Assembly (NCBI GenBank): GCA_965113315.1
Contig: OZ220367.1
Strand: one strand, 5' to 3'
Source of the DNA: Podarcis vaucheri
Lineage: Eukaryota
Length of the DNA stretch: 64,000 bases
The notes under the pieces are model-generated. The model was not told the origin of the DNA. It did no database searches and was given only the letters and a program-made list of their open reading frames with translations. Shown here piece after piece: positions 19,555 through 57,857 of this stretch. Position numbers and translations under genes: made by a program. Position 1 is the first letter of the stretch. Every line of letters starts with the position of its first letter.

Positions 19555-19632
19555 AAAAGGTCACGGATTGCCTACAGTGACGAGGTGCGGAATGAGCTCC
19601 TAGGGGATGATGGGAATTCCTCAGAGATCCAG
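19555..19632 (+). CDS. VTI1A: Internal coding exon of VTI1A (vesicle transport through interaction with t-SNAREs 1A), equivalent to mammalian coding exon 4
   Basis: 78-nt phase 0-0 exon. It is preceded by a branch-point-like GCTCAC (A at 19521), a long polypyrimidine tract and TTTTACAG, and followed by CAG|GTAGG. It translates to KRSRIAYSDEVRNELLGDDGNSSEIQ, matching the recalled vertebrate VTI1A segment KRSRIAYSDEVRNELLGDDGNSSENQ at 25/26 positions. Confidence 0.96.
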
Positions 19633-54700: not shown

Positions 54701-56244
54701 GTATTAAACATTTATTCATATACTGGGGATATTAATAATACATTTTATAGAAAAAGTAGCATCTGGATTATTTGACAGAGTTACGAATAAAGTGGTTAAT
54801 CTTACAAAATATAGTTTAAAGGTGGTATGATGAACAGGATTTAAACTAGATTAATTTAGAAAAAAAAATATCTGTAAATGTATTTAAAATAAGTTGCAGT
54901 ATGTCAAGATTATTATTTTTCTTTTAAAGTGTGCTTTAATTTTGGTATTAAATTTTACTGTGCAGTAACAACCAATTAACCTTCTGTATCTGTGAAAGGG
55001 ATTTGTCGAAGTCAAAGTGAATACTATTACTGTTCATCTAATGGAAGATATAAAATGTTCTATAAGTCTAGGGAAAAGCTCCTTCTGTTCCGATTAATGT
55101 GTGATACACATTAGTACAATATTTGCATAAACACTAGCTACATCTGATATCAGGGTCTCTAAATTAGTGGCTTTGTGGTATTCTGTATTTTGGTTTCTTT
55201 CTGATAAATTCTAGATAGTTTGACTCTGTCATGAGTAGGTTATAATGCATGTAAAACAGCAGAATGTTCACATAAAGTTTTGGCTCATTTAATGAACTGA
55301 AGAAATCAGGAACATGCTTTTTAATTTAACTGTTACTGGTTCGTGTGATGATGGGGCAGGTAGACAGCTTCCACACATTGTAATGTTTAATATAATGCAT
55401 TCAGTCAATTACCATTCATGGAACAAACTTTAATGTTCTGGAATGTTCACATTTTACATATGGATTACCAGGCTGTTTGTTACAGAGATTTACTTCTATT
55501 TTAGATTGTTTAAAATATTGTTTTTTTGCAGAAACTGTGTATAAAATATGAATGCCATTTCAGAAATAATACAAATGTGCTTTTTAAAGCAGTTTTTCTT
55601 TAAAAATGATCTTAGCATGTATATTCTGTCTTACATGTAACAACGTATTTAGTGATGCATCTGCAAAGGCAAGAATATGTTATATTTGAAATAGCCATCT
55701 CATTTGGACATTATAATAATACAAGAAAGTAAAATAGGCTGAGCACATTTAGCACAACATTTATTTACTTTATTATAGTACCAATGTACTATTGCGGCTG
55801 AATGCCCCCCCCTTTAGAAAACTAGTTGGAAATAAAGTTAATTTCAAATCACTAAATCACTCCTGTTTAACATAGCTTCTGTATGATGAATGTAATACTA
55901 ATAAAATCAAACACTAAAACTGTTGGCGTGCATTTGACCCCATAATATTAACTTTAATTTCTCAGATGCATATTTGGAAGCCCCAAGTGAGAAAAGAGAA
56001 GAAGAAAGCAAAACAAACTTAAAATGCTTGGTTGAAATACTGAATTTATAGCAGAAAATAGAAAGGACCCAATACTGTATATCCCAATAGAACATTTCAG
56101 ATAAGACTACAATGTCACAAGTTTGGAATATGCGTGTGTTAACTCCTGTATTATGTTACAGATAGGTAGCCGTGTTGGTCTGCCATAGTCAAAATAAAAA
56201 AATTCCTTCTAGTAGCACCTTAAAGACCAACTAAGTTAGTTCTT

Positions 56245-56285
56245 GGTATGAGCTTTCGTGTGCATGCACACTTCTTCAGATACAC
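56245..56285 (-). ncRNA. Minimal type I hammerhead ribozyme (PLE-type), antisense copy
   Basis: Minus strand GTGTATCTGAAGAAGTGTGCATGCACACGAAAGCTCATACC; stem I GUAU/AUAC is perfectly paired. Confidence 0.7.
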
Positions 56286-56295
56286 TTCAGATACA

Positions 56296-56336
56296 GTGTA
56301 TCTGAAGAAGTGTGCATGCACACGAAAGCTCATATC
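56296..56336 (+). ncRNA. Minimal type I hammerhead ribozyme (PLE-type), sense to VTI1A
   Basis: GTAT-CTGAAGA-A-GTGTGCATGCACAC-GAAA-GCTC-ATAT: CUGANGA and GAAA cores, palindromic stem II, AGCU mini-stem III, predicted cleavage after C56331, stem I GUAU/AUAU. Confidence 0.7.
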
Positions 56337-57857
56337 AAGAACTAACTTAGTTGGTCTTTAAGGTGCTACAGGAAGGAATTTTTTTATCCTGTATTATGGT
56401 GCATCCAGCTTGGAGCAGAAAGCATAGGGGAAATGGTGGATAAATAGCTCCTGGGTCCAACCGACCCTTGCATTCCATTGTAATGTTTTGGTGTTTTTGC
56501 ACACAAAGGGGTATGCAGAAAATAATCAGTAAATCTAAGTTGTGTTCCAAGCCCTCTTTTGAGAAGTTGCTGGGGATAATAAGGGCTCCATGAATGTGGG
56601 TGTTTGGTAGTTTCACTTTCCCATTCATTGAACTCCTTATCAATAGCTTAGAAAGTGAAATGCCAGTTTCCCCCCAAAAAGATTGAAAAAGGAAACATCA
56701 CAGGGTAATTGCTGAGGGCTATATGGAGTAGTGGTTCAGGTTTGTTTTTAAAAAGTGTAGTGAAACAGCTTCCCCCACTAGTTCAGAAAAGTTAAAATTC
56801 ATTTCCAAAACAATATTTGCTTAATATGCCATAACAATGTAATGTAATTTATTTGAAACATTCCAGTAGGATCTTTGACCATTAATAGAACTTGCTTTGT
56901 ACTTGAGTTGGACTTCTTTATATAATAATATATTCTGGACATGCACTGTCACTGAAATAACGTATGTGCTTAGTTTGGGTAGGAGGCACATGTCTTTGAA
57001 AAGCAGAAAAATAGAAATAAGAAAGTAAAGAGAATAATTTGTTCTCTTTCGAAAAGGCACTAGGAAATAATCAACCCGGGTACATTGAACGAGAGCATTG
57101 GTAAACAATATACACATTAGGGCGATCAGATTAGAATCTGTATCTTCCATGGACGTTTTTGTATTTAGGAAATTGTCAACAAGCCTGAAACATGCACTGC
57201 CTGAAATCTGCAAGAGTAATGGAAGGTAATACCTCTCCAGTTTACTTGGCTCTGTGGCAATCATAGGGCATGATAGTGGACCAAGATGTGTTCCGAATAA
57301 GGCTGACAGCTATATTCACAATTAATAAAATATGTATACTTGATAAAAAGAATGATGGTGGTCAGATGGTATACAAAGTCATGGTCACTGTATGAATTTT
57401 TACAGTGCCTAGTTGTAACTTGTGTGAGGACCACTTCCAGTTGGCTACATACTGTTGGTCAGTCACCACTGGAGAGATGAGGGGCTTAACCAGTCAGCTT
57501 GTCCACCTTATAACAGTTGTGCTGCTGTGGTCTCTCTGCCTTTTTATGGCCGATGGGTCTCCAGTTCTACACCATAGCCTGCCAGGAAAGAGGGAGCAGG
57601 GTTAGCACAATGTATCACTCCTGAAGGAAGGATGGTTGGATGGATGAGCAGGATCAATAAGCAGGGCAGGCCTACAATGGTACAGGAATTCATCCTGCCT
57701 AGAAATATTGAGGTTTCCAGAAACGGGGGCAAACCTAGTATATCTGCTGCTTTTATCTCAATGTTTTATGGGGTTTTTAAAATTAGGGCTCTGGTCATAA
57801 TTTGTTGTTATAATGTGTACCTCCCAAGAATCAAGCGAGGTCAATATAAAAATAGTA

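What the first reader, a model, noticed from the sequence alone, without database searches (positions are those of the whole stretch)
56144..56398. Fold-back Penelope-type element with two back-to-back minimal hammerhead ribozymes inside a VTI1A intron
Seen: a 231-bp insertion bounded by perfect 12-bp direct repeats. It has two ~92-nt inverted arms around an 8-nt spacer, and each arm carries CUGAAGA-stemII(GUGUGCAUGCACAC)-GAAA-GCUC with a matching stem I. Known: Penelope-like elements carry minimal type I hammerheads with palindromic stem III that are thought to cleave as dimers, and they often form inverted pLTRs. Inferred: any transcript through this site, sense or antisense, contains a hammerhead. 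In VTI1A pre-mRNA the sense ribozyme is synthesised after its own complement, so it should be silenced by a ~92-bp duplex. That would be a self-muting arrangement that could explain tolerance in an intron, and the duplex is also a potential ADAR/Dicer substrate.
Basis: partly seen in the sequence, partly recalled or inferred. Interest (0 to 1): 0.7.

Follow-up and report, generated by a model that had tools for sequence, protein, structure and literature searches.

The report
Penelope hairpin stub marking transcript start
This hairpin is one of more than a thousand similar stubs left by a young Penelope-type jumping gene; their seams likely record the copying enzyme running off the capped front end of the element's RNA from both cut DNA strands, while the idea that the hairpin was kept to mute its ribozymes is unsupported.

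Summary
In detail: a 231-bp insert between 12-bp target duplications, 93-nt inverted arms, and a minimal hammerhead in each arm. The site is empty in two relatives. It is a stub of a young RT + GIY-YIG Penelope-like element; at least 1,088 loci share this seam. Inverted stubs, minimal hammerheads and ADAR editing of lizard Penelope are all published. The seams carry the information. Of 164 arm ends, 66 lie at -1..+8, just behind a TATA box, and none at the cleavage product. Where reverse transcription jumped templates at +4, 22 of 25 junctions carry an untemplated G, likely the copied cap. Best model: both nicked strands prime short run-off cDNAs that join head to head. Self-muting is predicted by folding but shows no sign of selection. 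In stranded RNA of a related organism, five sites show sense-only A>G changes. Seven molecules begin exactly at the predicted cut, but this was not reproduced. This scan reached the twin run-off model before on other DNA. I found the cap-G signature neither in its notes nor in my paper searches.

The parts
56144..56155 (.). Left 12-bp target-site duplication
   Evidence: the empty site in contigs of runs X16 and X17 joins 56143 to 56387 (table 8)
56156..56193 (-). One-sided 38-nt tail (element +94..+131); holds the first ATG of the parent ORF (+101, window 56186) and its first codons
   Evidence: tail continues in frame into the ORF N-terminus in longer copies; ATG position
56156..56286 (-). 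Long arm = element +1..+131; inferred cDNA primed from the + strand nick
   Evidence: 100% identical over 131 nt to the 3' end of the promoter-bearing copy L053; priming inferred
56246..56283 (-). Minimal type I hammerhead of the long arm (stem I 4 bp, CUGAAGA, bulged A, stem II 5 bp, GAAA-GCUC); predicted cut after 56250
   Evidence: activity untested
56287..56294 (+). Seam: re-copy of element +11..+4 entered through a 2-nt microhomology
   Evidence: 11-nt direct repeat 56274-56284 / 56285-56295; read from the sequence
56295..56386 (+). Short arm = element +1..+92, no tail; inferred cDNA primed from the - strand nick
   Evidence: inverted arms in the sample end mostly at +90..+100
56298..56335 (+). 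Minimal type I hammerhead of the short arm, sense to the host gene; core starts 56302, predicted cut after C56331
   Evidence: 7 molecules of family RNA begin at 56332 in run X23, no pile-up
56387..56398 (.). Right 12-bp target-site duplication
19555..19632 (+). Upstream host exon (VTI1A-like, 26 codons) that sets the host strand
   Evidence: gene name recalled

Best explanation
The insert is a short head-to-head stub of a young endonuclease-bearing Penelope-like retrotransposon, likely made in one insertion event in which both nicked target strands primed reverse transcription and both copies ran off the front end of the element's RNA. Steps. (1) Shown: the parent has one ORF with RT and C-terminal GIY-YIG, then a 3' region with TATATAG at -30, the hammerhead (+4..+41) and the ORF's first ATG at +101. 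(2) Inferred: the RNA starts at +1..+4, mostly at a capped G at +4, so the hammerhead is the first structure of the mRNA. (3) Inferred from the TSDs, shown in vitro for a relative: the endonuclease nicks both strands about 12 nt apart, and each 3' end primes internally, one near +131 and one near +94; the difference is the tail. (4) Inferred: each cDNA reads through the uncut hammerhead and runs off the 5' end. It then joins the other cDNA through a short re-copied seam (fold-back), joins host DNA (solo), or jumps to another element RNA (partial tandem). (5) Predicted: host transcription makes a ~90-bp duplex that traps the hammerhead, and family RNA is likely edited by ADAR. Muting is a by-product of this geometry and was not shown to be selected.
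For: Family: 7,017 exact tail motifs, control 0; 1,088 exact back-to-back seams; Pfam RVT_1 E 4e-12 and GIY-YIG E 3e-5 in one 676-aa frame. First 100 tail hits of contig C1: 64 have an adjacent inverted arm; TSD >=8 bp in 54 of 64 against 7 of 313 swapped-flank controls; 66 of 164 arm ends at -1..+8, 4 at -30..-2, 0 at +36..+40. Either arm can be the longer one (L140, L151, L153 against L116, L107), so neither is a plain copy of the other. ORF-to-arm jumps: 44 of 59 restart at -1..+8. At +4, an untemplated G precedes in 15 of 17 (p 4e-6 against one third; 13 of 15 distinct junctions) and in 7 of 8 in a later batch. No shared upstream exon in 28 junctions. PAc of Anolis nicks and extends both strands, primes at two internal sites that delimit the tail, and uses uncut RNA (PMC11167929, parts 1-2 read). 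A>G at +40, +51, +55, +66, +67 in 8-42% of one strand's reads against 0.3-4% of the other's in two runs; G at these sites in at most 1 of about 300 genomic arms.
Against: No RNA 5' end was mapped; the depth rise at +1..+7 appears on both strands and is explained by read-through of truncated copies. The G signature is weak at fold-back and host junctions (18 of 33; 6 of 18 in the unbiased set). Starts at +2 are preceded by T, not G (10 of 10 jumps), and this locus's own arms reach +1. The two arms share subfamily variants (18 shared against 2.2 in shuffles), which fits one source but also fits snap-back copying. 53 of 164 arms run on upstream of -1, so run-off is only one route. The sample comes from one 10-Mb stretch of one contig. 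The mirror T>C changes expected on the antisense arm are largely missing (only +64). The RNA runs come from another organism code than the best DNA holders and do not cover this locus's flanks.
Confidence: 0.68

Rival explanations
1. Self-priming or snap-back: one strand is made, its end folds back at a palindrome and copies itself, and the endonuclease trims the tail from one arm (antisense self-priming proposed in PMC3846280; tail from resolution in PMC8557442).
For: Both arms share subfamily variants; many arm ends fall in the stem II palindrome (29 of 164 at +9..+34); seams hold re-copied arm ends.
Against: The tail-less arm is often far longer than the tailed arm, and the reverse also occurs, so it needs large loops plus trimming of either arm. 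It does not predict the pile-up at +1..+4 in solo and tandem junctions or the extra G. PAc extends both strands in vitro (PMC11167929).
Confidence: 0.18
2. The pile-up at +1..+4 is not a transcript start but a 3' splice site (TTCTGTTTCAG ends at +2) or an RT stop at the 5' edge of hammerhead stem I (+4).
For: The sequence fits a splice acceptor; in D. virilis Penelope the intron ends at the 5' end of helix I (PMC4209133); stem I begins exactly at +4.
Against: No common exon upstream of 28 such junctions (an exon under about 8 nt would be missed); loose RNA ends at +2/+4 share no consensus (agreement 0.4-0.5); RT meets stem I at its 3' side first; neither explains an untemplated G in 22 of 25.
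Confidence: 0.1
3. Self-muting as a selected trait: fold-backs persist in introns because the duplex silences an otherwise harmful ribozyme.
For: Folding predicts complete trapping; 7 molecules begin at the nucleotide after the predicted cut in one run (depth beside 31), so some cleavage may occur.
Against: Fold-backs are the commonest insertion shape and form anew each time; 36 of 100 copies are solo, 13 of them starting at -1..+8; no depth step or pile-up at +38 in four runs; minimal PLE hammerheads are inactive as monomers in vitro (PMC4209133).
Confidence: 0.07
4. A non-autonomous fold-back unit (MITE-like or retrozyme-like) that is copied as a whole.
For: At least 39 other loci match nearly the whole insert at 92-98%; a few seams recur.
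Against: Seams mostly unique (10 of 12, 23 of 25); arm lengths form a continuum up into the ORF; TSD lengths vary (8-17 bp in 54 of 64); the ends are not mutually inverted.
Confidence: 0.03

Closest known systems
Inverted-pLTR insertion unit of EN+ Penelope-like elements (PMC8557442 Fig. 2 legend and passages; Adineta Pen2a_Av, PMC3846280 passages)
   Same: Head-to-head inverted 5'-truncated copy, one-sided 30-40 bp tail that includes the first codons, TSD, TATA/Inr-like motifs in the pLTR.
   Different: Here both arms are cut to about 90-130 nt with no ORF, turn at one fixed point, and number over a thousand; that paper explains the inversion by antisense self-priming.
PAc / Poseidon_Ac of Anolis carolinensis (PMC11167929, parts 1-2 of 4 read)
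   Same: Both strands nicked and extended, two internal priming sites delimiting the tail, uncut RNA as template, no read ends at the hammerhead site.
   Different: This parent has a CX4CxxC RT-EN linker (Neptune/Nematis type) and its ATG lies 64 nt behind the cut, not inside stem II. The main text has no 'head-to-head', 'strong-stop', 'cap' or 'jump'.
Minimal type I hammerheads of metazoan PLEs (PMC4209133, parts 1-2 of 4 read)
   Same: Short helix I, unpaired base before stem II, G10.1-C11.1, palindromic 15.2-16.2; pairs on opposite strands 100-700 bp apart were noted there.
   Different: The pair here is about 20 nt apart and fully complementary; activity of this variant is untested.
ADAR hyper-editing of lizard Penelope and of palindromic Harbinger in frog (PMC5625713, passages)
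   Same: Penelope is the one heavily edited LINE-class repeat in lizard (over 40,000 sites); self-folding repeats need no partner.
   Different: That paper does not tie lizard Penelope editing to fold-back stubs in the passages seen; this architecture would explain it (inferred).
L1 twin priming and retroviral minus-strand strong-stop DNA (recalled, no call)
   Same: Both target ends prime; a short cDNA runs off a capped 5' end and transfers.
   Different: In L1 twin priming the two primers copy different parts of one RNA; here both copy the same +1..+94 stretch, and jumps need no homology.

Membership tests
EN+ Penelope-like element | Single ORF with RT and C-terminal GIY-YIG in the parent | tested here: met
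   (676-aa open frame in L172; RVT_1 and GIY-YIG over Pfam cut-offs), contiguous with the arm sequence
EN+ Penelope-like element | Inverted 5'-truncated copy and one-sided 30-40 bp tail | tested here: met
EN+ Penelope-like element | Retroposition with TSD into a previously empty site | tested here: met
   12-bp TSD; empty site in X16 and X17; X15 contigs break at the site and decide nothing
EN+ Penelope-like element | Intact full-length pLTR-ORF-pLTR source copy | tested here: inconclusive
   N-terminal and C-terminal parts seen in different loci; no whole copy among the 10 long loci fetched
Neptune clade | CX2-5CxxC linker between RT and EN | tested here: met
   CX4CxxC before the GIY-YIG domain; definition from PMC8557442; Nematis has it too
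Neptune clade | RT phylogeny with named Neptune members | not tested
   no reference set fetched
Minimal type I hammerhead | CUGANGA / bulge / stem II with G10.1-C11.1 / GAAA / palindromic 15.2-16.2 / UH, short stem I | tested here: met
   criteria from PMC4209133
Minimal type I hammerhead | Match to an Rfam hammerhead model | tested here: not met
   none at E<=5; does not bear on the minimal variants, which were defined by a descriptor
Minimal type I hammerhead | Self-cleavage at C17 | tested here: inconclusive
   7 molecules at 56332; none reaching a fifth of depth on the single arm
MITE (DNA transposon) | Terminal inverted repeats at both ends and a fixed short TSD | tested here: not met
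   38-nt unpaired tail at one end; TSD lengths vary; parent is an RT element
Non-LTR retrozyme | Tandem head-to-tail units each with a hammerhead | tested here: not met
   head-to-head here; definition from bioRxiv 10.64898/2026.07.22.740005 (part 1 of 5 read)

The most novel reading that the evidence does not exclude
Penelope elements replicate through a retrovirus-like strong-stop step. Internal priming on the 5' end of a capped mRNA gives a 90-130 nt cDNA that copies the cap and runs off. Its fate (join the twin cDNA, join the host, or jump to another RNA) produces all the puzzling PLE shapes: inverted stubs, solos, partial tandems and, by transfer to the transcript's 3' end, the pseudo-LTR itself. 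The extra G at jump junctions is the genomic fossil of that step.
Probability: 0.45. Interest if true: 0.7.

Novelty: new member of a known kind. Interest (0 to 1): 0.45.

Why it matters
The locus itself is a passenger. [quoted passage not shown] The seams give base-level predictions for the existing PAc-type in vitro assay: run-off at +4, an extra dC only on capped RNA, second-strand priming at +94, and jumps without homology. They also argue that hammerhead-cut RNA is not the template (0 of 164 ends at the cut) and give a structural reason for the heavy editing of lizard Penelope.

Tried and rejected
Rfam: no hammerhead hit; the miRNA hits are generic hairpin matches below cut-off. PDB and Pfam searches with the 26-aa host exon named nothing useful. 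Run search: no RNA holder on record was listed; RNA came only from raw-read runs added by species label. RNA depth could not show a start site, since both strands rise at +1..+7. No read of X23 covers this locus's flanks, so editing or cleavage at this copy is untested. Cap G at fold-back and host junctions: not significant in the unbiased set, 6 of 18. A type III reading with a cut at -1/+1 was considered by eye and dropped: no stem I or III forms. Two different source subfamilies for the two arms of this locus were considered (arm differences at +41, +76, +77) and left undecided; across loci the linked variant pair was always in both arms. Intron-orientation bias could not be tested without annotation. 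Small RNAs were not examined. Paper searches without a PLE mechanism paper: Penelope + twin priming (3 listings, titles on telomerase repair, human TEs and L1, not opened); Penelope + untemplated + cap + template jump (1 listing, on a bacterial defence RT); three searches for the cap-derived G precedent gave 0 papers, so that precedent is recalled. The paper on dimer cleavage by PLE hammerheads (Lunse and others, recalled) is not held. No supplements were read; those of PMC11167929 (Figs S1-S2, insertion ends) may bear on the claim of novelty.

Full report
Observation. The anatomy is as described, with small corrections. There are 12-bp direct repeats at 56144-56155 and 56387-56398 around 231 bp. 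The 93-nt arms have 3 mismatches and surround 8 nt, and the fold has z = -27 against 200 shuffles. Each arm holds CUGAAGA, a bulged A, a 5-bp stem II, GAAA-GCUC and a 4-bp stem I; these are the only two such cores in the window. Rfam has no hammerhead match. Contigs of two related organisms (runs X16, X17) join 56143 directly to 56387, leaving one copy of the repeat, so this is an insertion with a target-site duplication. A + strand exon at 19555-19632 and a weak + strand V-SNARE_C exon 65 kb downstream place the insert in an intron. The gene name is recalled.

Family and parent. A search with the insert gave 2,218 first-look candidates, of which 40 were scored. A 25-nt tail motif occurs exactly 7,017 times, the reversed control 0 times. 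The exact back-to-back seam occurs at 1,088 loci (the pattern is self-complementary, so forward and reverse counts are the same loci). Longer copies run upstream through a 3' region into an ORF with RT and GIY-YIG domains and a CX4CxxC linker. The protein search returned 7,113 candidates, 150 scored, at 95-100% identity, so the family is young. I number the element from the A of TTTCAGT as +1. TATATAG begins at -30, the hammerhead spans +4..+41 with the cut after +37, and the first ATG is at +101. The tail continues in frame into the ORF's N-terminus in 100 exact loci. The window insert is +131..+1 on the minus strand joined to +1..+92 on the plus strand.

Unselected sample. I took the first 100 tail hits, all on the first 10 Mb of contig C1, and mapped them to two natural reference copies. 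64 have an inverted arm within 60 nt, and 36 do not. Both arms are short in 42, and both begin at -1..+8 in 14. A TSD of 8 bp or more was found in 54 of 64 (mode 12-13 bp), in 17 of 36 solos, and in 7 of 313 swapped-flank controls. Of 164 arm 5' ends, 66 lie at -1..+8, 29 at +9..+34, 1 at +35..+41 (none at +36..+40), 15 beyond +41, and 53 upstream of -1, only 4 of them within -30..-2. Inverted arms end mostly at +90..+100. A few of the 64 are complex loci, so the class counts are approximate. Seams are mostly unique (10 distinct of 12; 23 of 25 among best hits). The two arms of a locus share variants far more often than shuffled pairs (18 against 2.2, maximum 8), so both come from one source.

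Cap signature. Where ORF N-terminal sequence is followed by a new arm, both sides of the junction are known. I examined 94 loci (15 and 79 fetched), holding 97 hits by the scripts' count. 59 have such a junction, and 44 of these restart at -1..+8. In the first batch 17 restart at +4: 15 have an untemplated G just before, 1 has A, and 1 is ambiguous (p 4e-6 against one third; 13 of 15 after merging identical junctions). The idea arose on the first 4 of these. In the later batch 7 of 8 have the G. Copying of the m7G cap as dC by reverse transcriptases is recalled from L1 and retroviral work; three searches gave no paper for it. Against: +2 restarts are preceded by T in 10 of 10, which may be a stutter of the GT repeat or a second start; one junction (L195) was mis-parsed because of a point change; and at fold-back and host junctions G precedes +4 in only 18 of 33, and 6 of 18 in the unselected set.

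Mechanism. Both arms point their element 3' ends at the target, which is the geometry of target-primed reverse transcription from both strands of a staggered cut of about 12 nt. The Anolis element PAc nicks and extends both strands, primes at two internal sites that delimit the tail, and uses uncut RNA (PMC11167929, parts 1-2 of 4 and a term search). I infer that priming on the 5' end of a capped mRNA gives short cDNAs that run off at +1..+4 and then join each other, the host, or another RNA. Snap-back, proposed in PMC3846280 (passages), is not excluded. It needs extra steps, because either arm can be the longer one, and it does not predict the G. A splice acceptor at +2 is the other rival; the D. 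virilis intron ends at helix I (PMC4209133), but no shared exon precedes 28 junctions.

RNA. On a single arm, two bulk runs show A>G at +40, +51, +55, +66 and +67 in 8-42% of reads of one direction and 0.3-4% of the other (Fisher p 1e-5 to 4e-45). The contexts are UAC, AAC, UAG, UAA and AAG, and genomic arms almost never have G there. These are 5 of the 18 rows listed at 10% or more; the other rows tested are symmetric or differ under twofold, and one A>G row (+98) is asymmetric the other way in the two single-cell runs. This fits ADAR editing, already reported for lizard Penelope (PMC5625713, passages). The mirror T>C on antisense reads is mostly missing, no DNA of the same individuals was laid, and the runs are of another organism code. 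Seven molecules begin at 56332, the base after the predicted cut, in the direction that the editing marks as sense (depth beside 31). They may be copies of few molecules. The single-arm lay shows no pile-up at a fifth of depth and no step at +38 in four runs. Cleavage in vivo is therefore a lead only.

Self-muting. In either direction the antisense arm is transcribed first, and folding gives stem II a probability of 1e-13 or less as the sense arm emerges. The prediction is sound, but it follows from head-to-head geometry in every such stub. Solo copies with whole cores are common, and minimal PLE hammerheads show no monomer activity in vitro (PMC4209133). I found no evidence of selection and could not test intron orientation.

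Known and new. Inverted pLTR, tail and TSD (PMC8557442, passages; PMC3846280), minimal hammerheads on opposite strands (PMC4209133) and editing are in print. Passages of PMC6155905, PMC7229834 and PMC2377424 and part 1 of bioRxiv 10.64898/2026.07.22.740005 were read for background. Earlier notes of this scan reached twin priming and run-off at the transcript start on other genomes, and one described a similar stub in this genome. I formed my reading before seeing them (notes), and they are not independent support. The cap-G at template jumps was not found in two look-ups of those notes or in paper searches, which miss subscription journals and supplements. Verdict: a new member of a known kind, interest 0.45, carried by the mechanistic record in the seams and not by the locus.

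Noticed in passing
L185, L189 (junction at element +305); L253, L254 (+329); L230, L250, L269 (+190); L207, L261, L270 (+191): ORF-to-arm jumps recur at the same positions and cluster at about +160..+200, which may mark preferred RNA 3' ends or landing sites.
   Followed up: no
L182-L276, hits without an arm junction: Many copies end in host DNA at +143..+170, behind the tail, suggesting minor further priming sites inside the ORF.
   Followed up: no
L017, L022, L073, L077, L078, L094, L143, L154, L193: A subfamily changes the scissile base C17 to U (+37) together with +76 A, always in both arms; UU still fits the recalled NUH rule.
   Followed up: partly
L053:1491, 1502, 1503 against antisense reads: A>G changes are strong on hammerhead-sense reads, while the mirror T>C on antisense reads is nearly absent; unexplained for a symmetric duplex.
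   Followed up: partly
L179, L180, L123: Nested or neighbouring double insertions: several arms, or two inverted ORF fragments, within 0.5-2 kb.
   Followed up: no
L175:5071-6501 (-), L176:1106-2319 (+): Long PLE copies sit beside an integrase/chromodomain-like frame and CR1-like RT fragments (labels by eye from the translations).
   Followed up: no
window 31068-31080: A third exact copy of the TSD 12-mer (13 nt match) lies 25 kb away; probably chance.
   Followed up: no
window 56390, run X15: Four contig ends join the arm's 3' end to (TAACCC)n telomeric repeat, so some family copies may sit at telomeric arrays (table 7).
   Followed up: no
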